Positions 8,090 through 41,847 of a stretch of DNA of 64,000 nucleotides are shown here, in pieces. Within the stretch, counting starts at the first letter, position 1. Each line of letters starts with the position of its first letter. Where the stretch lies: IMG/VR virus record IMGVR_UViG_3300045988_150343; one strand, written 5' to 3'. The position numbers and the translations under genes were made by a program. This DNA comes from a virus. The notes under the pieces were generated by a model. That model had not been told where the DNA came from, did not search any database, and was given only the letters and a program-made list of their open reading frames with translations.

Positions 8090-9576
8090 TTGGGGAGTAT
8101 TATAATTTGTTCTTTACCTTTTCGTATATGGTTTGTTATAGCCTTTCCAAAAATATCATCATCGGCATAAACTTCAGCATCTGGGTCATCGGCATTGGTG
8201 TTGGCCTTATGTTTACCCATTGCTACTGGTCTATTTAAGCCATCATAGATGAAGGTATAAGCTTCGTTAACAAAGAAGGGGTCTTTAATTATGACATTTC
8301 CCTCTCTTATATCCTTTTCTAGAGCTTCAATTATAACAGGTCTATTCTTATTGGTAGTTAACCATCCAGGAGCTTTGTCGACTTCTGGGCGACTCTTACC
8401 CTTCTGTTTTATAAGTTTTTGATAATAATATAAGTTTGGATAGCCTTCAGCCTGTAACATAGAGGTTACGGCCAATCCCACATCATTAGATTCGGGGGCT
8501 AATAAGGCATAATTGAATAATTCTCCAGTATCACCTAAGAGCCTAGCATATTTATCCACTGAAATACGGCCCTTATACACAACTTGTTCTTCCCCATACC
8601 TGTCCATGACAGTGAAGGAAGAGTAGTCATTAGAACGACCAGTTGCAACGTCAGCACCAATATAATATTGTTTATCTGGTTCTGGCTCTAGAAATTGCCT
8701 ATACTGACCATTGAATCGAGTTTTAATGACCGGATAATCTGATAGACAGTCCTCAATAGCCTTAATATCTGCAAGGTCGAATACGGTGTTACCCGAAGAA
8801 AGGAAGTCACCATCTATCTCTTGGGCAGTCCTTCTTGGGCCAAGAGCTTTAGACATGGTGTGATACCAATTTTCGTCTCGTTCAGGGTGCATCTCCCAGT
8901 AGAGACGAATAGGATTGAAACCATTACCTCCAGAAATAGAGTCAACCCATTGGGAATGGTAGAAATTACCAATTCCTTTGGGTGTGGAATTAATGATAGC
9001 AGAGCCACCAGTAGATAGAGTAGGAAGAGCAGCTGCCCAAACCTCACTAGCCCATCTTACCATAGCAGCCTCATCAATCACCAAAAGAGAAAGAGACTCA
9101 GAACGACCCGCTTCTGGAGAAGTAGGGACTGACTCAATGAATGAGCCATTGGAGAACTCCATTAAGGAAGTTGAACCAAGTTCAGAAACCCTACCGTTTA
9201 TAATGGGAGTTTGTAGATACCAAGGAAGATTCTTGTACATGAACTTAATCTTCTTTAGTACCTTTTTAGCAGTAGTGTCCTTGATGGAGATGATGTTTAC
9301 CTTCTTATTGGGATGGTACATACATAGCCATAGGCAGTACATAGATATTAACTCAGTGATACCAGCCTGTCGGAACTTCAATACGATGTTGAAACGTTCC
9401 TTAACAAACTGGTATAAAACTGCCTTTTGAAAAGGGTATAGTGCGAATTGGACTTTACCTCTGGTGGGATGAATCACATAACAGAATGTACTAAATAAGA
9501 ATACATCGTTTGTGACTTTAGCTAATGTTTGTAACTCTTCCCGTGAAATAAAGGTGGGTTGAGTTGTTATTGCCAT
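8086..9576 (-). CDS. terL: Terminase large subunit
   Basis: Walker A-like LKFRQAGITELIS (compare T4 gp17 SRQLGKT), Walker B LLVIDEAAMV, and a C-terminal RNaseH-like nuclease region YIGADVATGRSNDYSSFTVM. Confidence 0.9.
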   Translation of the reverse strand: MAITTQPTFISREELQTLAKVTNDVFLFSTFCYVIHPTRGKVQFALYPFQKAVLYQFVKERFNIVLKFRQAGITELISMYCLWLCMYHPNKKVNIISIKDTTAKKVLKKIKFMYKNLPWYLQTPIINGRVSELGSTSLMEFSNGSFIESVPTSPEAGRSESLSLLVIDEAAMVRWASEVWAAALPTLSTGGSAIINSTPKGIGNFYHSQWVDSISGGNGFNPIRLYWEMHPERDENWYHTMSKALGPRRTAQEIDGDFLSSGNTVFDLADIKAIEDCLSDYPVIKTRFNGQYRQFLEPEPDKQYYIGADVATGRSNDYSSFTVMDRYGEEQVVYKGRISVDKYARLLGDTGELFNYALLAPESNDVGLAVTSMLQAEGYPNLYYYQKLIKQKGKSRPEVDKAPGWLTTNKNRPVIIEALEKDIREGNVIIKDPFFVNEAYTFIYDGLNRPVAMGKHKANTNADDPDAEVYADDDIFGKAITNHIRKGKEQIIILPK

Positions 9577-17242: not shown

Positions 17243-17293
17243 TAATATTTCAATCAATTCGGGCTAGTCTGTGGTTAATAGGGTATGCCTCCT

Positions 17294-17996: not shown

Positions 17997-18050
17997 CATT
18001 GAATAAGACTGACATTGAATAAGGACATTGAATAAGACTGAGTTAAGACT
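17997..18050. repeat. Iteron-like triple repeat CATTGAATAAG(A/G)
   Basis: CATTGAATAAGACT at 17997-18010, CATTGAATAAGGA at 18013-18025, CATTGAATAAGACT at 18026-18039, and an extra TAAGACT at 18044-18050. Confidence 0.85.
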
Positions 18051-18264
18051 GTAAGGCTTAATTGAGTTATATTTGAGATAGTAAGGATTGGTGGGTATGT
18101 ATCATGGAGGGTTATATTAAAGGTATCGGATAGGTTGATATGTTTTTCTTTTTTCTTTGTTTGGGGGGGAGGAGTGAATGGGTAAACATGAAATTAGGTA
18201 CCTTAGTCCTTCTCGGATTTGGGTACCTAGAATTAGTAGGTATTAGATTTAAGGTTGGGATTCT

Positions 18265-18669: not shown

Positions 18670-18713
18670 GATGTTGGGTTTTTGATTATTTATGAGTAGA
18701 GTTATGGTGGTTT

Positions 18714-19268: not shown

Positions 19269-19288
19269 GACTTATAGGGTTTAAAGGG

Positions 19289-19684: not shown

Positions 19685-19717
19685 CTTTTAAATGTTTTTG
19701 AATTAATATTTATAATA

Positions 19718-19766
19718 CAAATATACACATTTATTTTAATATATCCAAATTTGCATCGAGCTGGTA
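19718..19766 (-). promoter_or_regulatory. Early promoter cassette (ACCAGCTC + TTTG + TAtaTTTG)
   Basis: On the minus strand: ACCAGCTC (19765-19758), TTTG (19749-19746), a 20-nt spacer, TAtaTTTG (19725-19718). Confidence 0.7.
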
Positions 19767-19771
19767 AGAGG

Positions 19772-20014
19772 TTATTTACCATAGACTTCATAGAGTTCCT
19801 GATAGTCATCAGTTTCGGTGAATACATCCAGGAAATAATTGTAATCTTCTTCGGTTGCCTCCTCGGGGAGCTTATTGAGGTCAATAATGCAGTAATGTTC
19901 CCAGACAGAGGTTATTATGTAGTCCTCAATATTTTGGGGTGGGAGAGGAGTAGCAGCATCAATAATGAATTTAGCAAAGAAGAAGATAGCAGCTGAGAGG
20001 AGTAACTTTTTCAT
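19772..20014 (-). CDS. Small secreted protein (signal peptide)
   Basis: The N-terminus MKKLLLSAAIFFFAKFIIDAATP looks like a cleavable signal peptide. Total length 80 aa. Confidence 0.5.
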   Translation of the reverse strand: MKKLLLSAAIFFFAKFIIDAATPLPPQNIEDYIITSVWEHYCIIDLNKLPEEATEEDYNYFLDVFTETDDYQELYEVYGK

Positions 20015-20340
20015 TGTTTTATATATTGAAAGGGGTTAATGATTTGGATGATTAGGAGGTTGCGTTCGGTTCTTATATTAGGGAGTAAGAGACCTTTAAG
20101 GTCTTCTTGTTCTGCTTCGAGTTTGTGAGCAGTAGATAAGCAATCTCGGGAGCTTTCAAAGGAGTATGTTACCCGAGCAATAGGTCGATCAGAATCACCT
20201 TGAAGGTTAATGTTCTCTATGGTGTATGGGTTGGGAGTTATCCATTGTTCCAGGCTTAAATCCTCCTGGAAGAGTTTAAAAACCTTCTTCAGTTCTAATT
20301 CTGATTGGAGAAGTTCTTTGGTGATGGTTAGTGTAGCCAT
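20011..20340 (-). CDS. Hypothetical early protein
   Basis: A 109-aa ORF downstream of the promoter at 20381..20427. Confidence 0.5.
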   Translation of the reverse strand: MATLTITKELLQSELELKKVFKLFQEDLSLEQWITPNPYTIENINLQGDSDRPIARVTYSFESSRDCLSTAHKLEAEQEDLKGLLLPNIRTERNLLIIQIINPFQYIKQ

Positions 20341-20380
20341 TGGGTTTTTATTTATTCGTTATACATTTAATTTTATATTA

Positions 20381-20427
20381 CAAAGATACAATATAATTTT
20401 TAATTACACAAATTTTGCTAGAGCTGG
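20381..20427 (-). promoter_or_regulatory. Early promoter cassette
   Basis: On the minus strand: CCAGCTCT (20427-20420), TTTG (20412-20409), a 20-nt spacer, TAtcTTTG (20388-20381). Confidence 0.7.
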
Positions 20428-20481
20428 AGGGATCATGGGTTCTTGAGACTCTCTCCGGAGATTTCTGTTGAAATTAGGGTT

Positions 20482-20598
20482 TTAGTCGAAGGCCATTCTA
20501 CCGATGGCTTGTTCTATGATTTCATATTTTTCCTGGTCCGAGATGGTGGGGTCTTTTAGCATCTCTTTTTCTTGGGGTGTAAGGCATGAGTCATCCAT
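20482..20598 (-). CDS. Possible 38-aa micro-ORF (not in the supplied track)
   Basis: My own translation gives MDDSCLTPQEKEMLKDPTISDQEKYEIIEQAIGRMAFD-stop. It lies between two copies of the 17-nt repeat AAATTAGGGTTTTAGTC. Confidence 0.3.
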   Translation of the reverse strand: MDDSCLTPQEKEMLKDPTISDQEKYEIIEQAIGRMAFD

Positions 20599-20710
20599 AG
20601 AAGTTATGTATTTTAATTATTAGAGAATGCGGCTTGGTAAGCCTCTAAAATTAGGGTTTTAGTCAACTTAGAAGCTAGCATTGATGAATTACTGGTATGA
20701 TCGTACTTTC

Positions 20711-21196
20711 TCATAGTTCGTATATTTCGTAGTTCTCTAAATAGTAAATCTCCAGAGCCCGTATTAAAGGAAGGACAAAAGTATAAACCCGAAGAGAGGA
20801 ATCTAGTCCTTTTATTAATTCTAGAGTAAGATTTACTTGGTTTGCTAGTTTGTTTTGCTCTTCGATATGCCCCTGATATGCGTATCCTGCCCCTTGTAAG
20901 TATTTAAGGAACTGCATTATTACAGGTACTAATTGAGAAGGGTGAATGGTTAAGGTATTTATATGAGAATGGTAAAGCTCATCTGTATTTGTATGCGATA
21001 TACGGTAGAAGACCTTACCCATTTCGTTGATTTCCTGTTCTGAGAGAATACCCTTACCAAGCCTAGTTGTAAATGACTCCTCGAATAAGGTGTCCCTGAT
21101 AAGGGAGTTAAGGGTGTACTCAATGCCCGTAAGGGCAGACTGGTTGAATAGTACCTTTTCCTTAGGTATATTTCTTGAGAATCTTACTTTGTTCAT
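20711..21196 (-). CDS. Hypothetical early protein
   Basis: A 161-aa minus-strand ORF. No motif recognised. Confidence 0.55.
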   Translation of the reverse strand: MNKVRFSRNIPKEKVLFNQSALTGIEYTLNSLIRDTLFEESFTTRLGKGILSEQEINEMGKVFYRISHTNTDELYHSHINTLTIHPSQLVPVIMQFLKYLQGAGYAYQGHIEEQNKLANQVNLTLELIKGLDSSLRVYTFVLPLIRALEIYYLENYEIYEL

Positions 21197-21197
21197 C

Positions 21198-21563
21198 TTA
21201 GTGTGACATTTGAGAGTAATGCGTTAGACAGTAAAATTTAAAGGCCTGGTCCCCAAAACGGCCAAGTAACTGGATAGGTTTCTTATTCTTAAGGTATTCC
21301 TCCTGATACCAGAGCCCGATGATATTCTGATTCATATCGGCATGAGCCCAGTGTTTATGCTTGAGAACTAGTACCAGTTCGGCATATTTTTTGTAGTCTG
21401 ACTTAGCCTCGAGGAGAAGTTGTTCGAGAAGAATCTTGCAGGCTTTTACTGCCTTTTGTTCGGTTTCCTGGGATTCTGCTTGAGTGAATTGTTCCCAGTA
21501 GTTGGTAAAGGGTTTATAGCCAATTAGTTCAGCCTCTACCCAGGTTTTCTTGATGTGTACCAT
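21198..21563 (-). CDS. Hypothetical early protein
   Basis: The ORF track gives 21198..21641. The ATG at 21563 (MVHIKKTWVE) sits 1 nt after the stop of 21565..21933 and removes a 77-nt overlap. Confidence 0.5.
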   Translation of the reverse strand: MVHIKKTWVEAELIGYKPFTNYWEQFTQAESQETEQKAVKACKILLEQLLLEAKSDYKKYAELVLVLKHKHWAHADMNQNIIGLWYQEEYLKNKKPIQLLGRFGDQAFKFYCLTHYSQMSH

Positions 21564-21564
21564 A

Positions 21565-21933
21565 TTAGTTGAGAGTGAAGTTTCCAAAAGGTTTTGATTT
21601 GTTGATTTCTCGAGCCAATTTCCTAAGAGTTTTGAGTTCAAGGAGAGGGAAAAAGTGTATCTCTTGGCCTATTATTGAGACCATTGCTCCCTCAGAGACT
21701 TCACTGAGAACTTCATTAAGAAGAGTGGCAAGGATTTGTTCTGCAGCCTTAAAGGCATTATCCTCGGGTTTGATACAGTCATCTATTATGTAGATGAGTT
21801 CTTCAGGAGTTGAATTCTCTTGGTCAAAGGTGACCAGTTTGAGAAGGCCTTCACCCTGTTTATTTAATCGAGCAGGGTTGCAGGAATAGAATAGCTGAAG
21901 CAGCTTCTGAGTCTGGAATACTTCTGGTGTCAT
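21565..21933 (-). CDS. Hypothetical early protein
   Basis: A 122-aa ORF downstream of the promoter at 21977..22025. Confidence 0.5.
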   Translation of the reverse strand: MTPEVFQTQKLLQLFYSCNPARLNKQGEGLLKLVTFDQENSTPEELIYIIDDCIKPEDNAFKAAEQILATLLNEVLSEVSEGAMVSIIGQEIHFFPLLELKTLRKLAREINKSKPFGNFTLN

Positions 21934-21976
21934 ATTGAATTATTATTGAATTGAACTAATTTTATTTTTCATATTA

Positions 21977-22025
21977 CAAATTTACAATAATAAATTTATA
22001 TATCCAAATTATATCTGAGCTGGTA
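21977..22025 (-). promoter_or_regulatory. Early promoter cassette
   Basis: On the minus strand: TACCAGCTC (22025-22017), TTTG (22008-22005), a 20-nt spacer, TAaaTTTG (21984-21977), followed by taATATGAAAA. Confidence 0.7.
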
Positions 22026-24561: not shown

Positions 24562-24573
24562 AATATTATAAAG

Positions 24574-24611
24574 AATACCCGAGAGATCTGAGAGATAACC
24601 TCTCGGGTATT
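24574..24611 (-). terminator. Hairpin after 24624..25157
   Basis: AATACCCGAGAG (24574-24585) pairs perfectly with CTCTCGGGTATT (24600-24611). Confidence 0.65.
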
Positions 24612-24623
24612 ATATTTTATAGG

Positions 24624-25157
24624 TTAAACGGCTTGAGCAGGTTTGAGAACTGAGTCCCGGAATTCCTCGTAGGCTTTCTTGGCCTTTTTGAACTCCTTGG
24701 AGTTTTGATCCTGGATACGGAGCATATCCCTTTCAAGAGTGCGGAGTTTGTTTCGGGTTTTCTGTCTCCAGGTTTTTCTGGAGAGAGTATCAGTTACATC
24801 CTCAGGGTAAAGGTATTTTACATCCCGGTGGGAGATAACCTCTTCCATAATAGAAGGCTTCTGTTGTTTGGCAGTTTCTGTAACTGCCTTGGCTTTAGCA
24901 GATTTTTTCTTTTTAAGTTTCACCTCTTTAGTGATTTCAGGAGCGGTTTCTCCTTTGATCTTTTTGGCCTTTTCGGGAGCAGCCGTTTCTTGAGCAGTTT
25001 TCTTAGCCTTAGCTGCTTTGTTTTTCTTAGCCTTCTTTACTTTGGTTTCTGTTGCAGTTGTGGTAACGAGTTCCTCGATAGGAAGTTCCTGTTTAGCAAC
25101 TTTGGCCTGGATTGCCTGGGTTGAAGCGATTGCTTCTGGGTTTTGGTTCTGGTTCAT
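24624..25157 (-). CDS. Lys/Ala-rich H1-like basic protein
   Basis: The N-terminal half KVKKAKKNKAAKAKKTAQETAAPEKAKKIKGE...KLKKKKSAKAKA is low-complexity K/A/E. The C-terminal ~70 aa look structured. It has its own promoter and terminator. Confidence 0.6.
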   Translation of the reverse strand: MNQNQNPEAIASTQAIQAKVAKQELPIEELVTTTATETKVKKAKKNKAAKAKKTAQETAAPEKAKKIKGETAPEITKEVKLKKKKSAKAKAVTETAKQQKPSIMEEVISHRDVKYLYPEDVTDTLSRKTWRQKTRNKLRTLERDMLRIQDQNSKEFKKAKKAYEEFRDSVLKPAQAV

Positions 25158-25215: not shown

Positions 25216-25285
25216 CAAATATAACGCCTTATTTTGAACTGACCAAATTTTTAACGAATTATTTTCAAAATTGCCAGAGCGGGTA
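25216..25285 (-). promoter_or_regulatory. Early promoter cassette (variant with extra spacing to the ACCCGCTCT element)
   Basis: On the minus strand: TACCCGCTCT (25285-25276), TTTG (25247-25244), a 20-nt spacer, TAtaTTTG (25223-25216). Confidence 0.65.
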
Positions 25286-25848: not shown

Positions 25849-26136
25849 TTACTTCAAATTAAGGGGTGATTTACAAATGACGTATTCCTTAATGATATCC
25901 GAGAAGAACTTCCCTTTGGACTCGGCCTGAAGGAAATTGTTGTAAACGATGGGGTTTACCTTATACTGGTATACCCATTTGGGCATTTCACCGGGTTTAT
26001 AGGGTTTGAAAACCAGGTAGAGTCTTTTAGACTTTTCGTCATAGCCTTGGAGGTAAAGATTTGAGGAGTCTACTTCCTCAAACTTAATCCCCAGAATGCC
26101 CGAGAGATGTTGGATTAATTTTTCTGTGGTAACCAT
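25849..26136 (-). CDS. Hypothetical early protein
   Basis: A 95-aa ORF. No motif recognised. Confidence 0.5.
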   Translation of the reverse strand: MVTTEKLIQHLSGILGIKFEEVDSSNLYLQGYDEKSKRLYLVFKPYKPGEMPKWVYQYKVNPIVYNNFLQAESKGKFFSDIIKEYVICKSPLNLK

Positions 26137-26493: not shown

Positions 26494-26542
26494 CAAATTT
26501 AATTATTTATTTTATAATATGCAAATTTAATCAGAGCTGGTA
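26494..26542 (-). promoter_or_regulatory. Early promoter cassette
   Basis: On the minus strand: TACCAGCTCT (26542-26533), TTTG (26525-26522), a 20-nt spacer, TAaaTTTG (26501-26494). Confidence 0.7.
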
Positions 26543-27522: not shown

Positions 27523-28116
27523 TTAATCTTCGTCCTTGGCTTTAGATTTCTTTTTATCCTTTTTAGCCTTCTTCTCTTTTAAAGGCTTTTCAGGAACAGC
27601 CGGTACTTTTTTAGCAGCCTTAGCCTCCTTTTCCTTTTTGGGTTTTGCTTCGCCTTTATTAGCGAGGCGACGTTGTTCGGCTCGATACTTTTTCTTTTCA
27701 TCGGCAGTCATCTCTCGGCCATCGATGAGAGGATAGTTATACTTGGTAGGAGTTGCAGCCTTAGCCTTTTTCTCCTTTTGAGCCTTTTCAGTTTCCTCTT
27801 TCTTAGGGGCTTTAGCCACATTGGCAGTAGCTTCCTTTGCAGCCTTCTTGGCTTTCTTGGCCTCTTTTTCGGCCTTTTGCTTCTTTTCTTTCATTTTAAC
27901 TAATTTAGTTTCGTTATGTATGTCATTATAAGGATAGTTATCCAGTACCTTATCCCGTTCAAGGTTTAACCTAGTGACCAAACGGGTTACTTCTTTGCCA
28001 TTAACTTTATCCTTTCTCCAGTCTTTCATTGGATTAAGGTTATGCCTCTTAAGATAATCTTTAAGAGCATTCTTAGCTTGAAGTAAAGCAGTTGTTTTTG
28101 TTTTGGCTGATTCCAT
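27523..28116 (-). CDS. Lys/Ala/Glu-rich H1-like basic protein
   Basis: KEKKQKAEKEAKKAKKAAKEATANVAKAPKKEETEKAQKEKKAKAA ... KPKKEKEAKAAKKVPAVPEKPLKEKKAKKDKKKSKAK. The N-terminal ~70 aa are non-repetitive. Confidence 0.6.
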   Translation of the reverse strand: MESAKTKTTALLQAKNALKDYLKRHNLNPMKDWRKDKVNGKEVTRLVTRLNLERDKVLDNYPYNDIHNETKLVKMKEKKQKAEKEAKKAKKAAKEATANVAKAPKKEETEKAQKEKKAKAATPTKYNYPLIDGREMTADEKKKYRAEQRRLANKGEAKPKKEKEAKAAKKVPAVPEKPLKEKKAKKDKKKSKAKDED

Positions 28117-28747: not shown

Positions 28748-28784
28748 GAGGGAGAGCCTATCCTCTTTTAGGTGGCTCTCCCTC
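28748..28784 (-). terminator. Hairpin after 28826..29242
   Basis: GAGGGAGAGCC (28748-28758) pairs perfectly with GGCTCTCCCTC (28774-28784). Confidence 0.65.
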
Positions 28785-28825: not shown

Positions 28826-29242
28826 TTAGTCCTCACCGGTAATATCCCCCTCCTCGTCTGAGTCTTCTTCCTCTACCTGGCCCTTTTTGTGTTTAGGTTT
28901 AGAGAAATTGCCATGATTCTTCTTCGACTTGATGGTGAGTTCTCCTGGGACGAATGTTGTGCTGGTTCCGATTACGTTGCCCTCGGCATCAGTAACTACT
29001 GAAGTAACCAGGACTCCCATATAGGTACCACCTACCTTAACCGGATGACCGTAGTTAGTAACTTTGGTACCGTTTGCGCCAAAGATAACATCGATGGATT
29101 TCGAGTTAGGTCGCTGCTCGGCAGGACGATTCTTAATTGCTTCGAGACGAGCTTTTTTCTTTGCAGCCTTCTCTTCAGGAGTCATAACCTTTTTGGTTGA
29201 TGCCTTAGGGGCATCCTTTTTTGTAGCTTTCTTTGTAGCCAT
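28826..29242 (-). CDS. Protein with a basic K/A-rich N-terminus, beta-rich core and acidic tail
   Basis: MATKKATKKDAPKASTKKVMTPEEKAAKKKARLEAIKNRP... then a globular region, then ...KKGQVEEEDSDEEGDITGED. Confidence 0.6.
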   Translation of the reverse strand: MATKKATKKDAPKASTKKVMTPEEKAAKKKARLEAIKNRPAEQRPNSKSIDVIFGANGTKVTNYGHPVKVGGTYMGVLVTSVVTDAEGNVIGTSTTFVPGELTIKSKKNHGNFSKPKHKKGQVEEEDSDEEGDITGED

Positions 29243-29299: not shown

Positions 29300-29339
29300 A
29301 GCTAACCCAACCTTTCGGAAGGATATAGTTGGGTTAGCT
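29300..29339 (-). terminator. Hairpin after 29362..30021
   Basis: AGCTAACCCAAC (29300-29311) pairs perfectly with GTTGGGTTAGCT (29328-29339). Confidence 0.65.
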
Positions 29340-29361: not shown

Positions 29362-30021
29362 TTACTTCTTTCCCTTTTTACCTTTATTGGCTTTAGGAAG
29401 AGAAATCCCCATTTCCTTGGCTATTGCCTTGCGGAGCTTCTCTACATCGTCTTCGTCAAAGTCATCTGGGTCAGTTTCGAGTTCATGATCATCGCATACA
29501 TCCTCGAGTTCCTCGAAGTCCATATCGGCGAGATCCTCTCCGGTAAGTTCTTCGTCGGAGTCGTCGTCTTCTTCTTCCTCCTCGTCTTCGTCGGAGTCGT
29601 CGTCGTCTTCTTCCTCCTCCTCGTCTTCGTCGGAGTCTTCATCATCTTCTTCCTCCTCGTCTTCGTCTTCTTCGTCTTCGTCTTCGTCGTCTTCTTCGTC
29701 TTCGTCTTCGTCGGAGTCTTCGTCGTCTTCTTCGTCTTCGTCGGAGTCGTCGTCTTCCTCCTCGTCGGAGTCGTCGTCTTCCTCCTCGTCGTCTTCGTCC
29801 TCGTCGTCTTCGTCCTCGTCGTCCTCGTCGTCTTCGTCCTCGTCGTCGTCGGAGTCTTCGTCGGAACCGAAGAAAGAAGATACCTGTTCTGCAGTAAGTT
29901 TAATAGGATTAGGTATAAACTGAAGAGTACCATCTTCGAATTTGATGATAACTCCGCCCTCAACTTCCAGGCGTTCTACTTCAGCAACTGCTGCCTTCTT
30001 TTCTGTTTTTTTCTTTGCCAT
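29362..30021 (-). CDS. Polyacidic protein (~115-residue Asp/Glu/Ser tract)
   Basis: A basic/beta N-terminus (MAKKKTEKKAAVAEVERLEVEGGVIIKFEDGTLQF...), then SDEDSDDDEDEDDEDDEDEDD...DDDSDEE, then an acidic-helical end and a basic tail (KANKGKKGKK). The gene is bracketed by its own terminator. The other-frame and antisense ORFs here are repeat shadows. Confidence 0.7.
   Translation of the reverse strand: MAKKKTEKKAAVAEVERLEVEGGVIIKFEDGTLQFIPNPIKLTAEQVSSFFGSDEDSDDDEDEDDEDDEDEDDEDEDDEEEDDDSDEEEDDDSDEDEEDDEDSDEDEDEEDDEDEDEEDEDEEEEDDEDSDEDEEEEEDDDDSDEDEEEEEDDDSDEELTGEDLADMDFEELEDVCDDHELETDPDDFDEDDVEKLRKAIAKEMGISLPKANKGKKGKK
29545..29870. repeat. Low-complexity GAN-codon (gtc/ttc/ctc on the plus strand) tract
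   Basis: About 325 nt of degenerate trinucleotide repeats encoding the D/E/S tract. Open in several frames. Confidence 0.9.
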
Positions 30022-30055: not shown

Positions 30056-30307
30056 TTAATTCTCTGCTTTGATGAGCTTCCTTAATTGAGGTCCCTCATT
30101 TCCGAAAGCATTATTCTCATCTCCGAAAGTATCATTATATTTGATAACCTCATCATTATATTTGATAACCTCATCTAGAATAGCTTGAAACTCTATTTGA
30201 GAAGTAATTTCTCGCCTTTCTATTACTTGACTTGGATCATCCTTCAGGCATATTATATAGGTACCTGAGTAGGGATTTGGGGTTTTAACTGTTTGAACGT
30301 TGGGCAT
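30056..30307 (-). CDS. Small hypothetical protein containing a 7-aa tandem duplication
   Basis: An 83-aa ORF. DEVIKYN-DEVIKYN is encoded by a perfect 2 x 21-bp repeat. Confidence 0.5.
   Translation of the reverse strand: MPNVQTVKTPNPYSGTYIICLKDDPSQVIERREITSQIEFQAILDEVIKYNDEVIKYNDTFGDENNAFGNEGPQLRKLIKAEN
30131..30172. repeat. Perfect 21-bp tandem duplication
   Basis: atcattatatttgataacctc at 30131-30151 and again at 30152-30172. Confidence 0.95.
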
Positions 30308-30953
30308 TTTGAGCTCTTTTTAAGTTTTTAATTTCGTTGGTGTACCAGGTTCGAGTATACCCAGGTATTTTCCCTCCGCCTTCAAATTGGTACCAAAGGA
30401 ACCTTTTATCGGGTTTCTGCCCTGGCCTGGAACTCATGTAGAGTTTCTTTGGATAAATATATGTTACCCCTTCAATAGTCTGGCTTGAAGTTATATAAGC
30501 CGGGCAATAAGAGTTACCCTTAAAATCTTTCGGGGTTTCATCTACATCCTTGAACTCTGAGAGAGGTACAAAGCCATAGAATAGGAATTGTTTAGCTATG
30601 CACTTTAACCTATGATTAGATACTTCATAACTAGAGGTTTCTCGGCATACTTCATTGAATTGGTTCCAAAGCTTTTCCCTATATTTTCTAGCAATTCTAA
30701 AGGCCTTATGAAGGGAGATTTGTTTTTTGTTTCGGGCATATAGGAATAATGCCAGATCGGCAACTAACCATCGGAGAGGTCTAATTCGACCATCATGACC
30801 TATAGGTCCATATTCTGGGGTTTCCTTAAATTCTATCCAGAAGTCAGTTTGGCCTTTATCGGAAAGTCTATTATAGACTCTGTAAGATAGCCTTACGCAA
30901 TTGATATCTCTTTTCCTTTCGATATCTAATATCAAGTCCTTCATTGTACCCAT
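30285..30953 (-). CDS. Hypothetical protein
   Basis: A 222-aa ORF. No motif recognised. Confidence 0.55.
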   Translation of the reverse strand: MGTMKDLILDIERKRDINCVRLSYRVYNRLSDKGQTDFWIEFKETPEYGPIGHDGRIRPLRWLVADLALFLYARNKKQISLHKAFRIARKYREKLWNQFNEVCRETSSYEVSNHRLKCIAKQFLFYGFVPLSEFKDVDETPKDFKGNSYCPAYITSSQTIEGVTYIYPKKLYMSSRPGQKPDKRFLWYQFEGGGKIPGYTRTWYTNEIKNLKRAQNAQRSNS

Positions 30954-31386
30954 AGAGAGCTAGAGCATAAAAGTTATTAAAATTCTTTCTTCCCAATCGA
31001 ATAGCTCGATACATTCTAGTACGGTAATATCTTCTCCGATGTTTATCCACCAAATACTCAGGGGGAGTAATAAATCGGGGTGTAATCTTAGGATGGCCCT
31101 TGAAAAAGATGTGTCTACCCCACTTCTTTTGAAAATGAGTTATACCCATTTTAATAAGGTTTTTACCCTTAATAATATGGATATAACTCAAGACATCAAC
31201 TCCAAAGTAAATGGATAAAGTTCGCTTAGCATGAAATCGAGTAAAATAGGGAGTAGAACAGAAGTGCTTCTTGTATAAGAACTTCTTCTTTTCGGGAGAA
31301 TACTTCCAATATTCCTTAGGCCTCCATGTCCAAACATAATAATAGTTCGGATTTACTATGCCGTATGTCTCCCGAATCCTTGTCAT
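30871..31386 (-). CDS. Very basic hypothetical protein
   Basis: A 171-aa Arg/Lys/Tyr-rich ORF. It overlaps the downstream ORF by 83 nt, so one of the two starts is uncertain. Confidence 0.5.
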   Translation of the reverse strand: MTRIRETYGIVNPNYYYVWTWRPKEYWKYSPEKKKFLYKKHFCSTPYFTRFHAKRTLSIYFGVDVLSYIHIIKGKNLIKMGITHFQKKWGRHIFFKGHPKITPRFITPPEYLVDKHRRRYYRTRMYRAIRLGRKNFNNFYALALYGYNEGLDIRYRKEKRYQLRKAILQSL

Positions 31387-32334: not shown

Positions 32335-32392
32335 CAAATTTAGATATAATTTTTGAATTGACAAAATTATTTTTCACAATTCAAGAGCTGGT
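32335..32392 (-). promoter_or_regulatory. Early promoter cassette (overlaps the 3' end of 32367..33353)
   Basis: On the minus strand: ACCAGCTCT (32392-32384), TTTG (32365-32362), a 19-nt spacer, TAaaTTTG (32342-32335). Confidence 0.65.
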
Positions 32393-33353
32393 CTGGAGCT
32401 CGTTCTACACCAGTAGAGGGAGTTTTCTTCTTTTTAGGTTTAGGCCTATGCTCCATATAGGCATTATCAAGAGACTTTACACTGAAGTCAATATTGTTCA
32501 CCTCATTGTAGTTAACAGCCCTCTTAATAATATCAATGAAAGTAGGCCAAAAACCTTGACCTAATCGGACATTTGCTGTTTTAGCCCTATATTTAGTGAC
32601 CATAAAACCAAAATCCTCGGCATCTTGTTTTGTTGAAAATACATAGAGATAGAATCTACTCATTTCGTCTATGATTTCTCTTTCTTGACGAATCGGTAAT
32701 AGTGAAAAACCCTTTTCTGGGTATAACAATTCAGATACCAGACATACCCAATATTTGGGTTTTGAGGGTTTTACCTTATAGTAAAATCTTTCTCGGATTT
32801 TCTCTATGAACCAAGGTTTGTTTCTGTCAAGGGTATACTTAATGTATATCTTGTACTTCTTATTTACTCTACGTTTGAAAGCTGAGGGTTGTTGTATCAG
32901 TCTTGGGAGGATACGATAATTATTCCATCGGTCAAACTCCATAATTAAATTCCAAGTGTCCTTATCCCAGGAGTCTCCAGACTCTTTAAGTCTTTTCATA
33001 TTCCGGATGAGGTTCTCTTGGGTCACAGAATTTACTAAAAGAGAGGATTCTCCTACAAAGGCAGATGCTTCAGACCGTTTCATCCTCTTCTCAAGGCAAG
33101 CATACATAAAATCCCGGAAGGTTTCTTCTACTGCTCCATTAGGCCTAAATAGGTCTGAATGAGTTTCATAGAACTCGGTGAACATTTTGAAGAACTTCTG
33201 GGATCTGTCTTTAATCTCTAAGTATTTATAATGAGATATACCCATCATCTCTCCGGCTTCCCAAGAGGATTTCCCTTGGGAAAGTTGAAGGAACAGAGAG
33301 TTCTGTTCCTTCTGAGTTAAGCAATTCCACGCTTTTTCTTGAGCTTCTGTCAT
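32367..33353 (-). CDS. Putative transcription regulator with an N-terminal sigma-70 region-4/LuxR-like HTH
   Basis: LTQKEQNSLFLQLSQGKSSWEAGEMMGISHYKYLEIKDRSQKFF resembles the region-4 pattern L...e..v..l....g.s..EIae.lgiS..tV......a...l. The remaining ~270 aa are unassigned. Confidence 0.45.
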   Translation of the reverse strand: MTEAQEKAWNCLTQKEQNSLFLQLSQGKSSWEAGEMMGISHYKYLEIKDRSQKFFKMFTEFYETHSDLFRPNGAVEETFRDFMYACLEKRMKRSEASAFVGESSLLVNSVTQENLIRNMKRLKESGDSWDKDTWNLIMEFDRWNNYRILPRLIQQPSAFKRRVNKKYKIYIKYTLDRNKPWFIEKIRERFYYKVKPSKPKYWVCLVSELLYPEKGFSLLPIRQEREIIDEMSRFYLYVFSTKQDAEDFGFMVTKYRAKTANVRLGQGFWPTFIDIIKRAVNYNEVNNIDFSVKSLDNAYMEHRPKPKKKKTPSTGVERAPDQLLNCEK

Positions 33354-39469: not shown

Positions 39470-39851
39470 TGCGGTAATATTTTATTAAGTCCTGAAGGAT
39501 AATTTCTACTTTATACCAGTCCTCTCTAAGAATAGCCTTCATAAGTAATACGAAATCTGGGTATTTCTCTCCGTACATCTCTTGGTACTGTTCGAGAAAC
39601 TCAGGATAATAACTTATAAAGCGTTGCTCTCTTTTAGAGGTTGGCGTTTGGTACTTCTTTGCAATAGAGAGAGCCTTATATAAATCCTGTATACCGCCCT
39701 TTTTAGGCCATCGGCAAACGTATTTAGAAATCTCTCCTTGTGCCCAAGTAACATTGAGTCTTCTAAACTCGTCCCAGGGCTGGATTTTGTTTTGGTAGTG
39801 GGTTCCCCCCACCTGTTGAACACTATTCATCATATTCCTCATTTTCTTCAT
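39462..39851 (-). CDS. DUF3310-like protein
   Basis: GGTHYQ..IQPWDEF.....W.QGEISKYVCRWPKKGG..DLYKA..... fits the DUF3310 pattern HY...iepi.......f..gN.iKY..R...K....DL.KA. Confidence 0.55.
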   Translation of the reverse strand: MKKMRNMMNSVQQVGGTHYQNKIQPWDEFRRLNVTWAQGEISKYVCRWPKKGGIQDLYKALSIAKKYQTPTSKREQRFISYYPEFLEQYQEMYGEKYPDFVLLMKAILREDWYKVEIILQDLIKYYRNE

Positions 39852-40977
39852 CCTCAGCTGAGTCGTAGTTTTCGTATTCTACCCCATCAACAGGATAAAA
39901 GTTAGTACTTAGCTCTTCCAGTTTTCTTTTGGTTGAACCTATGGTGTTTATCTCGGCTCTTTTTAAGAGTTTTCTTCTGAGAGCATCATCCTCCTCGAGA
40001 AGTGCTTGGAATTTTTCCTCTCCTCTTGCAAGTGACTTCCCTTTATATTTATAAACTCCTCCTGAACTCTTTTCGATGATATCGTTTTCAACTAATACAT
40101 CCTCAAGAGCAAAACAACGGTCAAAACCTACCTCATGAAACTTAGGGTTAAAGTAAACCGGGCATTTTGATAAAGTTGGTCTTGGTGGAGCTACCTTGTT
40201 TTTGATAACTCTGATGGTTACTAATTTACCAGATTTACGTTCTTTACCTTTTTGTTTGATTGTAAGAGTTCTACCAGCATAGAAAGCAAGTCTCTGAGAG
40301 GCATAGAATTTAAGAGCAGCTCCTCCCGTAGTAGTAGTGTTATCCTTTCCAAAACCCACATTAAGAGCTGTTCTAAGCTGATTAATGTAAATTTGAGTTA
40401 CTCCCAGTTTATAAAAGAGTTCATTGCGTATCCGGAAGTATTTATACAAAGCCTTAGCTCGTCCACCCATCTCAGCTTTACCCTCTATCATCTTGGCATC
40501 TATGTTATCTGCACAATCCATAGCAGCAACTGAATCTACTACCAGTAGTATGGGCTCGTTATGGGTTAATTGGGAACGGAGAAGAATTGCTAAATCAGCA
40601 ACTATGTCTGCAACATACTCAATTCGGGTATCATTTACTAGAGTAACCTTTTCGGGGTCTACTCCATTAGTCTCTGCCCAAGAGTTCATCCAAGATTGTT
40701 CGGCATCCACCCATATTACATGGCCTCCAAGTTGTTGAGTAGCATAAGCGAAGTCGTAAGCAATTAGAGACTTGCCCGAGGATTCTTCTCCGGCTACTTC
40801 CAGGATTTTCCCATAGGGTATACCTCCACCCAAAGTGTAATTAAGAGCAAGGAATTTGGATGGGAGCCATAAACCAGTCTCCTTACTGGTTGAGGCTTTT
40901 TGAATAAGGTTCCCATATTTTCTGAGAAGCTCGTTCTGTGTTGGTACCTTAATACCTATTTTAGATTTCTTTGCCAT
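39823..40977 (-). CDS. recA: RecA/UvsX-like recombinase
   Basis: Walker A EVAGEESSGKSLIA, RecA block LLVVDSVAAM, and an acidic C-terminal tail. I prefer the ATG at 40977 (MAKKSKIG), which leaves the hairpin 40998..41046 intergenic. The ORF track start is 41010. Confidence 0.9.
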   Translation of the reverse strand: MAKKSKIGIKVPTQNELLRKYGNLIQKASTSKETGLWLPSKFLALNYTLGGGIPYGKILEVAGEESSGKSLIAYDFAYATQQLGGHVIWVDAEQSWMNSWAETNGVDPEKVTLVNDTRIEYVADIVADLAILLRSQLTHNEPILLVVDSVAAMDCADNIDAKMIEGKAEMGGRAKALYKYFRIRNELFYKLGVTQIYINQLRTALNVGFGKDNTTTTGGAALKFYASQRLAFYAGRTLTIKQKGKERKSGKLVTIRVIKNKVAPPRPTLSKCPVYFNPKFHEVGFDRCFALEDVLVENDIIEKSSGGVYKYKGKSLARGEEKFQALLEEDDALRRKLLKRAEINTIGSTKRKLEELSTNFYPVDGVEYENYDSAEDEENEEYDE

Positions 40978-40997
40978 AGTGTATTTATATACAAGAA

Positions 40998-41046
40998 AGG
41001 GAGATACCAAGGTTAGTAGCCTTTGAATATCTCCCTCGGGGTTTCA
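40998..41046 (-). terminator. Hairpin after the SSB-like gene
   Basis: AGGGAGATA (40998-41006) pairs with TATCTCCCT (41038-41046). The loop is long (31 nt). Confidence 0.4.
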
Positions 41047-41058: not shown

Positions 41059-41847
41059 TTAAATGTCAGTAGCTTTTTTCTTTTTCTTCTTTGATACCAC
41101 CTTGTCGGATGATAAGGATGACTTCTTCTTTTTAGGACGGGGTTCATCTTCATCCTCCTCCTCTGATGATTCATTAAGATAACTCTTGAGTATTTCTTCG
41201 AGTTCATCATAGGATTTGATTTGAGCCCTTACCATTTTCTCAAGTTCTACAGGCTTAGTATACTTCTTGTCTAGTTGAGTTGGTTTGCAGTTCATTACCG
41301 AATAAGTGGTATCAAATTGACCCTTACCTGTACGGGTAATCTTAATATCATAACCCGTTTTTGGATCGGTCATATCACCAGCCTCATCTTCATCGAGATA
41401 GAGATTGATGATATCCTGATATACTTGAGCAGTTACCAGGATTACTCTATCCTGACCATCATATCCGATGTGTTTACCTTTCTCATCATCATAAACCAGT
41501 CCGCCTACTACATATCGGCGTTTAGGAATAAGTTTTTTTGCCAGTTCTTTATCATCCGGATCAGATGAATTATGGAGTTCCTGATACTTCTCCATAATTG
41601 GACAGGGTTCTCCAAAAGTCTGGGGAGAATATACCGAACCGATGTTCGGACCAAGATAAAACTGAATTAATTCAAGGCCAAGTTCTTCGTCCTCTCCAGG
41701 ACTTTTAATCCTAATACGGGTTACACCTTCTTTACAGAAGATAAAACCAGAGTTTTTACCTTTCTCTTCTAGTTTCTTCTTTCTAGCCAGCATCTTCTCC
41801 TTAGTGGTCATACCAGTAGAAGATAGCTTTTTCTTTTTTTCTTTCAT
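41059..41847 (-). CDS. gp32-like single-stranded DNA-binding protein
   Basis: Its architecture parallels T4 gp32 (from memory): RIRIKSPGE vs IRFLPS; EPCPIMEKYQELHNSSDPDDKELAKKLIPKRRYVVGGLVYDD vs [39 protein letters not shown]. It has an acidic tail ESSEEEDEDE and lies next to recA. Confidence 0.55.
   Translation of the reverse strand: MKEKKKKLSSTGMTTKEKMLARKKKLEEKGKNSGFIFCKEGVTRIRIKSPGEDEELGLELIQFYLGPNIGSVYSPQTFGEPCPIMEKYQELHNSSDPDDKELAKKLIPKRRYVVGGLVYDDEKGKHIGYDGQDRVILVTAQVYQDIINLYLDEDEAGDMTDPKTGYDIKITRTGKGQFDTTYSVMNCKPTQLDKKYTKPVELEKMVRAQIKSYDELEEILKSYLNESSEEEDEDEPRPKKKKSSLSSDKVVSKKKKKKATDI

What the first reader, a model, noticed from the sequence alone, without database searches (positions are those of the whole stretch)
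29362..30021. Stand-alone gene for an extreme polyacidic protein (DNA-mimic or histone-chaperone-like)
This 219-aa protein has a middle section of ~115 residues made almost entirely of Asp/Glu with periodic Ser (…SDEDSDDDEDEDDEDDEDEDD…DDDSDEE). That section sits between a short basic beta-like N-terminus and an acidic helical C-terminus ending in KGKKGKK. The gene is immediately followed by a perfect 12-bp hairpin and is one of a run of early genes. Charge density of this kind is characteristic of DNA mimics (the Ocr/ArdA anti-restriction logic) and of nucleoplasmin-type chaperones for basic DNA-binding proteins. Three lysine-rich H1-like proteins are encoded within 5 kb of it. The repeat DNA (degenerate GAN codons) is also likely to vary in length between isolates.
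Basis: partly seen in the sequence, partly recalled or inferred. Interest (0 to 1): 0.7.

Follow-up and report, generated by a model that had tools for sequence, protein, structure and literature searches.

The report
Hypervariable polyacidic protein with SSB-tail module
A very common type of human-gut phage encodes a conserved small protein whose middle is a run of about 5 to 106 acidic residues that changes length between strains, and whose folded end is the same module found on the tails of phage single-stranded-DNA-binding proteins; this suggests a role in DNA replication or recombination, not a classic anti-restriction DNA mimic.

Summary
Window 29362..30021 (-) encodes a 219-aa protein with 106 consecutive Asp/Glu/Ser residues and a net charge of -109. 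A perfect 12-bp hairpin follows the stop codon.

The gene is conserved and under purifying selection in thousands of metagenomic relatives. They come from ~79-88-kb phage genomes whose layout fits the published "Flandersviridae"/Gubaphage description.

The protein has four parts:
- a Lys-rich arm plus a small three-strand and helix domain;
- a polyacidic linker that varies widely in length. It is 29-68 aa in 78 IMG/VR genomes, and 35-47 aa in genomes 98-99% identical to the window, against 106 aa here;
- a strongly conserved acidic three-helix module of 51 aa;
- a Lys-rich tip.

The new result concerns the C-module. It is homologous (hhalign 98.8%, E 8e-17) to a module present in 1-3 copies in the C-terminal tails of gp32-fold phage SSBs. 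The window's own gp32-like SSB has only a ~10-residue acidic tail and no such module.

Best reading (inferred, confidence about 0.4): an SSB-tail-like acidic adaptor acting on DNA-metabolism proteins. Rival readings are a flexible DNA mimic of the SPO1 Gp44 type and a partner of the neighbouring Lys-rich proteins. Membership of Ocr/ArdA or nucleoplasmin is not supported.

The parts
29362..30021 (-). Complete CDS of the 219-aa polyacidic protein (net charge -109)
   Evidence: ORF list and sequence. Charge. At least 8000 metagenomic homologues. In frame in 78/78 complete IMG/VR loci. dN is far below dS.
29866..30021 (-). N-terminal part, aa 1-52: Lys-rich arm (MAKKKTEKK) plus a small three-strand and one-helix domain
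   Evidence: AlphaFold model of homologue P0018, pLDDT 81-87. Seen outside this family only as a resemblance to junctions of MBG_2 repeats. dN ~0.4 with saturated dS.
29548..29865 (-). Polyacidic linker, aa 53-158: 52 D, 46 E, 8 S. A coding cryptic repeat of GAC/GAA(/TCC) units that varies in length
   Evidence: TRF periods of 15/24/36/39 nt at ~75% match. Asp codons are 96% GAC against 37% in reference genes; Ser codons are 100% TCC. The tract is 35-47 aa in genomes 98-99% identical and 29-68 aa in IMG/VR.
29395..29547 (-). C-module, aa 159-209 (LTGEDLADMDFEELEDVCDDHELETDPDDFDEDDVEKLRKAIAKEMGISLP): acidic three-helix module homologous to modules in gp32-type SSB tails
   Evidence: pLDDT ~90. 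phrog_34306 positions 252-346. hhalign 98.8%, E 8.4e-17 against SSB-tail modules. dN ~0.15. It is the only copy in the window.
29362..29394 (-). Lys-rich C-terminal tip (KANKGKKGKK) and stop codon
   Evidence: Sequence. A K-rich tip is kept in all homologues, including distant two-module forms and several SSB tails.
29300..29339 (-). Stem-loop 22 nt after the stop (12-bp perfect arms, 16-nt loop). Probably a partial terminator or an RNA 3'-end stabiliser
   Evidence: A stem-loop is kept at this position in all lineages, with different stem sequences. No U-run follows in this lineage.
32335..32365 (-). Bacteroidetes-type promoter match (TTTG..TAAATTTG). It probably starts the transcription unit that ends with the target gene
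   Evidence: Pattern search found 12 matches against 3.3 expected. No promoter match lies between it and the target, and the gap to the upstream gene is 34 nt. The unit itself is inferred, not shown.
28826..29242 (-). Downstream 138-aa protein (K-rich N-terminus, beta core, acidic tail). Possibly co-transcribed by read-through of the hairpin
   Evidence: Syntenic in MT121964.1 and L002. No promoter match before it. A canonical terminator follows at 28748-28784 plus a T-run.
27523..28116 (-). 197-aa Lys-rich protein (27% K, net +30). Context for the chaperone rival
   Evidence: A homologue with the shared motif KY.YP...KKKYR occurs in the distant relative L007 at 8964..9383.
41059..41847 (-). 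The phage's own gp32-like SSB (262 aa). Its tail is short (..ESSEEEDEDEPRPKKKK..KKKKKKATDI) and has no C-module. It lies next to a RecA-like gene at 39823..41010
   Evidence: phrog_1192 E 1.5e-27. Sequence. BLASTP to the P0250 core, E 2e-6. No C-module hit. RecA Pfam match.

Best explanation
The gene encodes a conserved modular protein of a Flandersviridae/Gubaphage-like gut phage. The protein has four parts:
1. a Lys-rich arm with a tiny beta/alpha domain;
2. a disordered poly-Asp/Glu linker that expands and contracts by slippage of GAC/GAA units. Its length is not critical;
3. a folded, very acidic 51-aa three-helix module. It is the same module that gp32-fold phage SSBs carry, in one to three copies, in their C-terminal tails;
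4. a Lys-rich tip.

Most likely it works like an SSB tail supplied as a separate polypeptide. The acidic linker and C-module would engage basic DNA-binding surfaces or partner proteins of the phage's DNA replication and recombination machinery. This is what the acidic C-domain of T4 gp32 and the tail of T7 gp2.5 do. The N-domain would supply a second contact.

Shown here: the anatomy, conservation, length hypervariability, homology of the C-module to SSB tails, and the short tail of the phage's own SSB.

Inferred: the binding partners and the replication/recombination role.
For: Homology of the C-module to SSB tails:
- The only library family hit of the target is phrog_34306, to profile positions 252-346 of 388.
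- phrog_34306 is a gp32-type SSB family. P0250, P0271, P0272 and P0273 match it end to end and also match phrog_1192 'single strand DNA binding protein'.
- P0250 matches Pfam gp32.
- The AlphaFold model of P0272 matches the RB69 and T4 gp32 cores, Foldseek E 1e-7 to 1e-6.
- Profile-profile comparison of target-family C-modules with SSB-tail modules gives 98.8% probability, E 8.4e-17, over 52 columns.

Occurrence of SSB-plus-module proteins:
- One lies on a 69-kb contig next to a RecA-like gene.
- One is in the GenBank record of Vibrio phage B1_1.
- Other gp32-like SSBs, for example that of Bacillus phage SP-10, have long polyacidic tails ending in K-rich tips.

The window itself:
- Its own gp32-like SSB has a 10-residue acidic patch and no module.
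- The target lies just downstream of the SbcCD/PDDEXK/RecA/SSB block. This synteny is kept in distant relatives.
- The C-module is the most constrained part (dN 0.15, dS saturated).

Known functions of SSB acidic tails: PMC5892887 (the gp32 C-domain binds the core's ssDNA site) and PMC10359462 (the gp2.5 tail binds replisome partners and competes with DNA).
Against: - No partner is identified and no experiment exists.
- The N-domain has no link to SSBs.
- The gene sits in the ~20-kb block of unknown genes, which carries host-type promoters. That would also fit a host-takeover role.
- The census of proteins carrying the C-module is incomplete. Only 150 of 545 hits could be inspected. A further search with the module alone returned nothing.
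- Homology of one module does not fix the function of the whole protein.
Confidence: 0.4

Rival explanations
1. Flexible DNA (ssDNA-like) mimic used for host takeover or anti-defence. The polyacidic disordered region, anchored by the small N-domain, would occupy nucleic-acid-binding clefts of host proteins such as RNA polymerase, HU, R-M or other defence nucleases. SPO1 Gp44 does this, and Ocr and ArdA do so in rigid form.
For: - Extreme charge: net -109, and the linker has almost no basic residues.
- The architecture parallels SPO1 Gp44: a folded ~55-aa N-domain, then a 57% D/E disordered middle without basic residues, then a C-terminal part. Gp44 binds RNAP beta/beta' (PMC8208478).
- The gene lies in a block of small unknown genes with eight Bacteroidetes-type promoter matches. 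This is as expected for genes read by host RNAP.
- SSB acidic tails themselves act by competing with DNA (PMC5892887).
Against: - There is no Pfam match to Ocr, ArdA or any family. There is no structural match.
- tblastn of the target against 50,697 phage records hits only its own relative.
- Tract length is unconstrained: 5-59 aa with identical flanks, up to 106 aa here. Distant homologues have mixed-charge linkers. The mimic would therefore have no defined size.
- The folded part of the N-domain is net acidic, so it is not an obvious DNA anchor (read from the sequence).
- The most conserved element is shared with phage SSBs of unrelated hosts. That argues for a conserved partner, not a host-specific one.
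Confidence: 0.25
2. Charge-neutralising partner or chaperone (nucleoplasmin-like logic) for the Lys-rich proteins encoded next to it. It would keep them soluble and off nucleic acid until they are needed.
For: - Lys-rich proteins lie at 28826..29242, 27523..28116 and 24624..25157.
- The 138-aa gene is adjacent, syntenic and possibly co-transcribed.
- The 197-aa K-rich family co-occurs with the acidic protein in a distant relative.
- The layout of an N-terminal beta domain, an acidic tract and a basic tail is reminiscent of nucleoplasmin.
Against: - There is no nucleoplasmin core. The N-domain has three strands and a helix, with no Pfam or Foldseek match.
- BLAST finds no homologue of the 138-aa protein in the distant relatives L004 and L007, which keep the acidic protein.
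- The idea does not explain why the C-module is shared with SSB tails.
- No interaction data exist.
Confidence: 0.15
3. Packaged internal or scaffolding-type acidic protein of the virion.
For: Phage scaffolds and some internal head proteins are acidic. The basic termini could contact DNA. No tool result speaks for this reading.
Against: - The gene lies outside the head module (terminase, portal, protease and major capsid protein at 3.5-9.6 kb). It is separated from it by about 20 kb of small genes.
- It sits in a unit with a host-type promoter.
- Its C-module is shared with SSBs.
Confidence: 0.05
4. Not a functional protein: low-complexity DNA that happens to be open in several frames.
For: The same DNA is open in two other frames: 228 aa on the + strand and 173 aa on the - strand.
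Against: - Only the 219-aa frame has conserved N- and C-terminal domains. These are found in thousands of relatives.
- 78 of 78 complete loci are in frame.
- dN is far below dS.
- The domains fold with confidence.
Confidence: 0.01

Closest known systems
C-terminal tails of gp32-fold phage SSBs (phrog_34306 family; Vibrio phage B1_1 SSB; by function, the acidic C-domain of T4 gp32)
   Same: The 51-aa acidic three-helix module is homologous (hhalign 98.8%; PHROG match). In both, an acidic or polyampholyte disordered segment precedes it and a basic tip often follows.
   Different: The target has no gp32 OB/Zn core. It carries a ~50-aa beta/alpha domain instead. Its linker is almost purely D/E and far more variable in length. 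T4 gp32 itself was not shown to contain this module.
T7 gp2.5 and bacterial SSB acidic C-terminal tails
   Same: A disordered acidic tail that competes with DNA for a binding cleft and recruits replisome partners (PMC10359462). The layout of domain, linker and acidic end is shared.
   Different: There is no sequence relation. Those tails are short (about 10-26 aa) and end in an acidic/aromatic tip. This protein ends in a folded module and a Lys-rich tip.
SPO1 Gp44 (flexible DNA-mimic inhibitor of host RNA polymerase)
   Same: A stand-alone phage protein of similar size (237 aa). It has a small folded N-terminal domain, a disordered middle of ~57% D/E with no basic residues, and a further C-terminal part (PMC8208478).
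   Different: No detectable sequence similarity. The Gp44 N-domain binds dsDNA, whereas the folded part of the target's N-domain is net acidic. The Gp44 C-terminus is unstructured, whereas the target's is a conserved helical module shared with SSBs.
Ocr (T7 gp0.3) and ArdA anti-restriction DNA mimics
   Same: Very acidic phage or plasmid proteins that act through charge mimicry of DNA.
   Different: Those are rigid folded mimics of defined length. Here the acidic part has a low-complexity D/E/S composition and ranges from 5 to 106 residues. There is no profile or fold match.
Nucleoplasmin/NPM2, and acidic tails of HMGB1-type proteins
   Same: The order beta domain, polyacidic tract, basic tail is shared. 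Ser-Asp/Glu punctuation of the tract resembles eukaryotic acidic IDRs.
   Different: There is no pentameric eight-stranded core and no homology. The setting is bacterial-viral, with no known histone-like client.

Membership tests
gp32-type SSB (Pfam PF08804; phrog_1192, phrog_34306) | gp32 OB-fold DNA-binding core | tested here: not met
   The target has no Pfam hit. It matches only positions 252-346 of phrog_34306, the tail region. Its N-domain is three strands and a helix. The target is not an SSB.
gp32-type SSB (Pfam PF08804; phrog_1192, phrog_34306) | Acidic C-terminal tail containing the ~52-aa helical module | tested here: met
   hhalign gives 98.8%, E 8.4e-17. The carriers of the module are gp32-fold proteins.
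Ocr (PF08684) / ArdA (PF07275) DNA-mimic anti-restriction proteins | Profile or sequence match to the family | tested here: not met
   The Pfam scan at E <= 0.1 returned no family. The PDB sequence search gave nothing relevant.
Ocr (PF08684) / ArdA (PF07275) DNA-mimic anti-restriction proteins | Rigid fold displaying carboxylates with B-DNA-like spacing and a fixed length | tested here: not met
   The acidic part is a length-variable low-complexity tract: 5-59 aa with identical flanks, and 106 aa here. Foldseek against PDB found no match.
Ocr (PF08684) / ArdA (PF07275) DNA-mimic anti-restriction proteins | Inhibits type I restriction-modification enzymes | not testable with these tools
   This needs an in vivo restriction assay or in vitro binding.
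Nucleoplasmin-type histone chaperones (PF03066) | N-terminal eight-stranded beta-sandwich core forming pentamers | tested here: not met
   No Pfam hit. The model has three strands and a helix in ~40 residues. No Foldseek match.
Nucleoplasmin-type histone chaperones (PF03066) | Polyacidic tracts followed by a basic C-terminal tail | tested here: met
   A 106-aa D/E/S tract and the KANKGKKGKK tip. This is resemblance only.
Nucleoplasmin-type histone chaperones (PF03066) | Binds and chaperones basic DNA-binding proteins | not testable with these tools
   K-rich neighbours exist, but no interaction could be computed.
SPO1 Gp44-type flexible DNA mimic | Small folded N-domain, then a D/E-rich disordered middle without basic residues, then a C-terminal region | tested here: met
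   compared with PMC8208478.
SPO1 Gp44-type flexible DNA mimic | Sequence homology to Gp44 | tested here: not met
   tblastn of the target against 50,697 GenBank phage records matched only MT121964.1. I did not check that the SPO1 record is in that collection.
SPO1 Gp44-type flexible DNA mimic | N-domain binds dsDNA; acidic region binds RNAP beta/beta' | not testable with these tools
   This needs biochemistry.
MBG_2 repeat (PF18676) | Match to the Pfam model above the gathering score | tested here: not met
   The target has no Pfam hit. Its N-domain profile resembles the junction between successive MBG_2 repeats in giant surface proteins.
'Flandersviridae' / Gubaphage (assignment of the window's genome) | Genome of ~80-85 kb ordered as structural block, then DnaB/primase/PolA replication block, then a ~20-kb block of unknown ORFs | tested here: met
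   Gene content. Relatives' contigs are 79-88 kb. Published descriptions: PMC8008677 and PMC7895897.
'Flandersviridae' / Gubaphage (assignment of the window's genome) | TerL and PolA phylogenetic placement within the named clade | not tested
   No named reference genome of the clade was compared.

The most novel reading that the evidence does not exclude
A 'split SSB'. In this phage lineage the long acidic interaction tail that related gp32-type SSBs carry in cis (polyacidic linker, C-module, basic tip) would be encoded as a separate polypeptide. That polypeptide would dock through its small N-domain onto the nearly tail-less SSB or onto the replisome. Tail length could then vary freely by repeat slippage without disturbing the DNA-binding core. 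This would be a trans-acting, length-polymorphic SSB tail, an arrangement I have not seen described for any SSB system.
Probability: 0.15. Interest if true: 0.75.

Novelty: new variant of a known kind. Interest (0 to 1): 0.55.

Why it matters
- Phages with this genome layout (Flandersviridae/Gubaphage-like) are among the most prevalent phages of the human gut. About 20 kb of their genome has no functional annotation (PMC8008677, PMC7895897). This gene is a conserved, probably well-expressed member of that block. It now has a first homology-based functional lead.
- The work defines a previously unnamed ~52-aa acidic helical module shared by stand-alone proteins and by the tails of gp32-fold SSBs. 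It also re-annotates phrog_34306 ('unknown function') as an SSB family.
- The polyacidic linker is a natural length-polymorphic coding repeat. It could serve as a strain marker. It also breaks or chimerises short-read assemblies at this locus, which matters for gut-virome genome quality.
- If the trans-acting-tail idea is right, it would give a simple system for studying how the length of an acidic disordered tail tunes SSB-partner interactions.

Tried and rejected
- Megablast of 6 kb around the gene against GenBank phages: no match.
- Pfam on the target and 9 neighbours: nothing meaningful. Pfam on 10 more genes of the block: only a KTSC domain.
- PDB sequence searches with a homologue and with the C-module profile: nothing.
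- Foldseek of the target-family model against PDB: best E 0.3, TM ~0.2. Against BFVD: only two family members, one with a misleading automatic name.
- Exact-sequence look-up of the window protein: not on record.
- P0178, an OB/SSB-like N-terminus fused through poly-E to the C-module at the same locus. I considered it as support. I set it aside because it sits on a 1.5-kb contig, and many metagenome proteins are demonstrably chimeric at the tract.
- The strong hits of the N-domain profile to giant MBG_2 proteins. I judged these a short-motif resemblance across a repeat junction. They are not evidence of function.
The third homologue search with that alignment returned nothing. The census of other architectures carrying the C-module is therefore incomplete.
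- A scan of GTDB genomes found only two mis-binned MAG contigs. It gave no prophage and no host information.
- Not attempted: a test of whether the C-module docks on the SSB core (no coordinates or PAE were returned for the models), and multimer prediction (no such tool on hand).
Full report
**1. Observation**

The minus strand of the window carries an ATG-initiated ORF at 29362..30021 encoding 219 aa.
- Residues 53-158 are 106 consecutive residues drawn only from Asp (52), Glu (46) and Ser (8).
- The protein is 58% D+E with a net charge of -109. This is by far the most extreme in the region.
- D+E+S make up 19.1% of ten reference proteins of the window, so a run of 106 has a chance probability near 1e-76.
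- The next longest acidic run in any frame of the 64 kb is 10 residues. It is the tail of the phage's own SSB.
- The other two ORFs open over the same DNA (228 aa on +, 173 aa on -) are by-products of the low-complexity sequence. Only the 219-aa frame has conserved ends.

A perfect 12-bp inverted repeat (29300-29311 / 29328-29339, 16-nt loop) starts 22 nt after the stop codon. It folds at -19.7 kcal/mol, z = -3.9. No U-run follows, and the terminator scan did not call it.

**2. What genome this is**

The window encodes:
- terminase, portal, protease and major capsid protein at 3.5-9.6 kb;
- baseplate proteins at 59-64 kb;
- DnaB-like and other helicases, and a 1111-aa family A polymerase;
- a gp32-like SSB, a RecA-like protein, a 5'-3' exonuclease, SbcCD and a PDDEXK nuclease.

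Between 14 and 33 kb lies a block of small genes without annotation. Nearly all genes are on the minus strand.

Relatives of the target sit on contigs of 79-88 kb from human-gut samples. The closest GenBank record is a human-faeces phage fragment, MT121964.1. This layout fits the published descriptions of 'Flandersviridae' and Gubaphage:
- 'Flandersviridae' has a median genome of 85.2 kb ordered as structural block, then DnaB/DnaG/PolA, then ~20 kb of unknown ORFs (PMC8008677).
- Gubaphage is described in PMC7895897.

I did not test the TerL or PolA phylogeny, so the assignment is inferred.

**3. The protein is real, conserved and modular**

An exhaustive profile search of 1.84 billion cluster representatives found 545 hits.

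An AlphaFold model of a short-tract member gives the following (pLDDT about 80-90):
- a Lys-rich arm;
- three short strands and a helix (residues 14-51);
- after the linker, three helices.

Between lineages, dS is saturated. dN is about 0.15 in the C-terminal module and about 0.4 in the N-domain. All 78 complete IMG/VR loci keep the frame.

**4. The acidic tract is a hypervariable linker**

- Among the 120 best hits, 85 proteins have identical N- and C-terminal flanks. Their tracts range from 5 to 59 residues.
- In 78 complete loci from IMG/VR contigs the linker is 29-68 residues, median 51. It is 90% D+E, with four basic residues in about 3,900 positions.
- Two MEGAHIT contigs are 98-99% identical to the window over 10 kb of flanks. 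They carry tracts of 35 and 47 residues against 106 here. The window allele is the longest seen.
- In the window tract, 96% of Asp codons are GAC (37% in reference genes) and all Ser codons are TCC (14% in reference genes). In other lineages the tract uses GAT 68% of the time. The tract therefore grew by lineage-specific amplification of a few codon units. TRF periods are 15-39 nt at ~75% match.
- Distant homologues have linkers of mixed charge rich in Pro, Lys and Glu. Polyacidity is therefore not a family-wide requirement.

Caveat: many metagenome proteins are chimeric exactly at the tract.
- The tract therefore disturbs short-read assembly.
- Some of the very short alleles, and conceivably the long one here, could be artefacts.
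- The longest exact internal repeat in the window tract is only 30 nt. This argues against a simple assembly expansion.

**5. The key new result: the C-module is an SSB-tail module**

The only family in any library that the target hits is phrog_34306 ('unknown function'). The hit covers only profile positions 252-346 of 388.

The evidence that this PHROG is a gp32-type SSB family, and that the module is shared, is as follows:
- The profile search picked up P0250 (483 aa). It has a gp32-like core (Pfam gp32, E 5.6e-5) followed by three copies of the C-module.
- P0250 lies on a 69-kb contig between a clamp-loader-like gene and a RecA-like gene.
- P0250, P0271, P0272 and P0273 match phrog_34306 from end to end. 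Three of them (P0250, P0272, P0273) also match phrog_1192 'single strand DNA binding protein'.
- An AlphaFold model of P0272 has a core with pLDDT > 90, a disordered linker and a confident C-module. It matches the RB69 and T4 gp32 cores with Foldseek E 1e-7 to 1e-6.
- Profile-profile comparison of C-modules from the target family with modules from SSB tails gives 98.8% probability, E 8.4e-17, over 52 columns.
- A GenBank record, Vibrio phage B1_1 (Mardecavirus), encodes a 382-aa gp32-like SSB with one module.
- Other members of this SSB family carry long polyacidic or polyampholyte tails ending in Lys-rich tips. The named SSB of Bacillus phage SP-10 is one.
- Distant relatives of the target carry the small N-domain followed by two C-modules.

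The module is therefore a portable unit. No solved structure matches it.

**6. Context in this phage**

The window's own gp32-like SSB (41059..41847, next to the RecA-like gene) ends in ..ESSEEEDEDEPRPKKKK..KKKKKKATDI. That is a 10-residue acidic patch with no C-module. The target holds the only C-module in the 64 kb.

The gene order SbcD, SbcC, PDDEXK, two conserved unknowns, a few small genes, then the acidic protein is kept in distant relatives.

The Bacteroidetes promoter consensus TTTG-N15-23-TAnnTTTG occurs 12 times against 3.3 expected. Eight matches sit in minus-strand intergenic gaps of the 14-33 kb block. The target has no match of its own. It follows the upstream gene after 34 nt. 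It is probably the sixth gene of a unit starting at 32335-32365. The elements that follow it are:
- the hairpin, which has no U-run in this lineage. A strong stem-loop with a different sequence occupies the same position in all lineages, often with a T-run;
- the 138-aa gene;
- a canonical terminator at 28748-28784 plus a T-run.

It is not proof of timing.

**7. How it most likely works**

*Shown:* the anatomy, conservation, length polymorphism, homology of the C-module to SSB tails, and the short tail of the resident SSB.

*From established knowledge:*
- The acidic C-domain of T4 gp32 folds back on the ssDNA-binding surface of the core (PMC5892887). It also contacts other replication and recombination proteins.
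- The acidic tail of T7 gp2.5 competes with DNA and recruits polymerase and helicase (PMC10359462).

*Inferred:* the target acts as an SSB-tail-like acidic adaptor. The disordered polyacidic linker and the folded acidic module would engage basic DNA-binding surfaces or partner proteins of the phage's DNA metabolism. The N-domain would provide a second contact. I put this at about 0.4.

A sharper version is that the protein is the SSB's missing tail supplied in trans. The evidence does not exclude it (about 0.15).

**8. Rivals**

- *A flexible DNA mimic for host takeover or anti-defence (0.25).* It has a good architectural precedent in SPO1 Gp44 (PMC8208478) and fits the host-type promoters. 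Several points count against it. Ocr and ArdA membership fails. Tract length is unconstrained. The best-conserved part is shared with SSBs of phages from unrelated hosts.
- *A chaperone of the neighbouring Lys-rich proteins (0.15).* This rests on adjacency and on co-occurrence of the 197-aa family in a distant relative. The nucleoplasmin core is absent. BLAST finds no homologue of the 138-aa protein in distant relatives.
- *A virion protein (0.05).* Gene position argues against it.
- *A non-coding artefact (0.01).* The conservation data refute it.

**9. Novelty and score**

Acidic tails that regulate and connect SSBs are well known. Flexible acidic DNA mimics have a precedent. Three things are new here:
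- the recognition of a specific conserved module shared by stand-alone proteins and gp32-fold SSB tails;
- its occurrence as a separate protein in one of the commonest gut phage groups;
- the extreme, strain-level length polymorphism of the linker.

I class it as a new variant of a known kind, with interest 0.55.

Noticed in passing
window 15249-15279, 17211-17242, 19718-19749, 20381-20412, 21977-22008, 25216-25247, 26494-26525, 32335-32365 (-); 12205-12236 and 56705-56736 (+): The Bacteroidetes-type promoter consensus TTTG-N15-23-TAnnTTTG occurs 12 times against 3.3 expected. Most of the matches share an extended sequence of the form TTTGGATATAT..AAAATAA..TATATTTG. They sit directly upstream of genes of the unannotated 14-33 kb block and of two + strand gene starts (12270 and 56777). 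No intergenic match precedes the replication or structural genes.
   Followed up: partly
window 14000-22000: GC skew of the + strand jumps to +0.17..+0.33 in this stretch. It is near zero in the rest of the window. AT-rich palindromes lie at 14448-14546 and 15341-15421, next to the only cluster of + strand genes (12270-13937).
   Followed up: no
window 29866-29960 (aa ~20-52 of the target): The N-domain motif (INGxIIIxYEDGSxxIIPxPIxLTAxxxxxxFG) resembles the junction between successive MBG_2 (PF18676) repeats. These repeats occur in giant secreted or surface proteins with up to 23 copies. About 40% identity over 33 residues, by my own count from the sequences. Homology or convergence is unresolved.
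   Followed up: partly
phrog_34306; proteins P0250, P0271, P0272, P0273: This PHROG is labelled 'unknown function' but is a gp32-fold SSB family. Its members also hit phrog_1192 and Pfam gp32. A model matches RB69 and T4 gp32 cores.
   Followed up: yes
window 41059-41847 (-), 41856-42233 (-), 39823-41010 (-): A gp32-like SSB with an unusually short tail is flanked by a GroES-like small protein (phrog_3188) and a RecA-like recombinase.
   Followed up: partly
window 30285-30953 and 30871-31386 (-): Two ORFs (222 and 171 aa) upstream of the target overlap by 83 nt. MT121964.1 has a similar overlapping pair. Distant relatives have a single 297-298-aa ORF at this position. This could be a split gene or a programmed frameshift.
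   Followed up: no
window 42868-46203 (-): The 1111-aa family A DNA polymerase matches its closest relatives (MT836181.1, MT121964.1) in 2-3 separate pieces covering 72%. This suggests an insertion or deletion, perhaps a mobile element, in one of them. A weak thymidylate-synthase PHROG hit lies at residues 631-700.
   Followed up: no
window 32367-33353 (-): This 328-aa protein is conserved in all relatives, including distant ones. From reading its sequence, its N-terminus looks like a helix-turn-helix or sigma region-4-like segment. No library match. It sits just upstream of the promoter match at 32335-32365.
   Followed up: no
metagenome proteins P0182-P0211, P0143, P0270; L002 (P0178): Many predicted proteins consist of the N-domain and part of the acidic tract joined to unrelated sequence. 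The tract is therefore a frequent chimera or breakpoint site in short-read assemblies. One 1.5-kb contig joins an SSB-like OB fold to the tract and C-module at the same locus.
   Followed up: partly
window 27523-28116 (-); L007 8964-9383: The 197-aa Lys-rich protein shares the motif KY.YP......KKKYR..RR with a 139-aa protein of a distant relative. Both end in a short acidic tip. No function is known.
   Followed up: no
window 28748-28784 and 24564-24621: Further strong intergenic stem-loops follow neighbouring small genes. The first is followed by TTTTTATTT, a canonical terminator.
   Followed up: partly
L094, L095 (GTDB MAGs labelled Collinsella sp. and Romboutsia sp.): The only genome-collection hits to the family are contigs binned into Actinobacteria and Firmicutes MAGs. 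One is an 82-kb contig that looks like a whole phage genome. They are probably mis-binned.
   Followed up: no
BFVD entry A0A8S5NA12 (Myoviridae sp. ctx322): A 153-aa family member (54% identical to the modelled homologue P0018) carries an automatic name listing SPT20, SPT3 and histone acetyltransferase. The name presumably arose from matches of the acidic tract and is misleading.
   Followed up: no
window 25849-26136 (-): A 95-aa protein with a KTSC domain (PF13619, E 5e-10). It is the only Pfam hit among the 20 proteins scanned from the 14-33.4 kb stretch.
   Followed up: no
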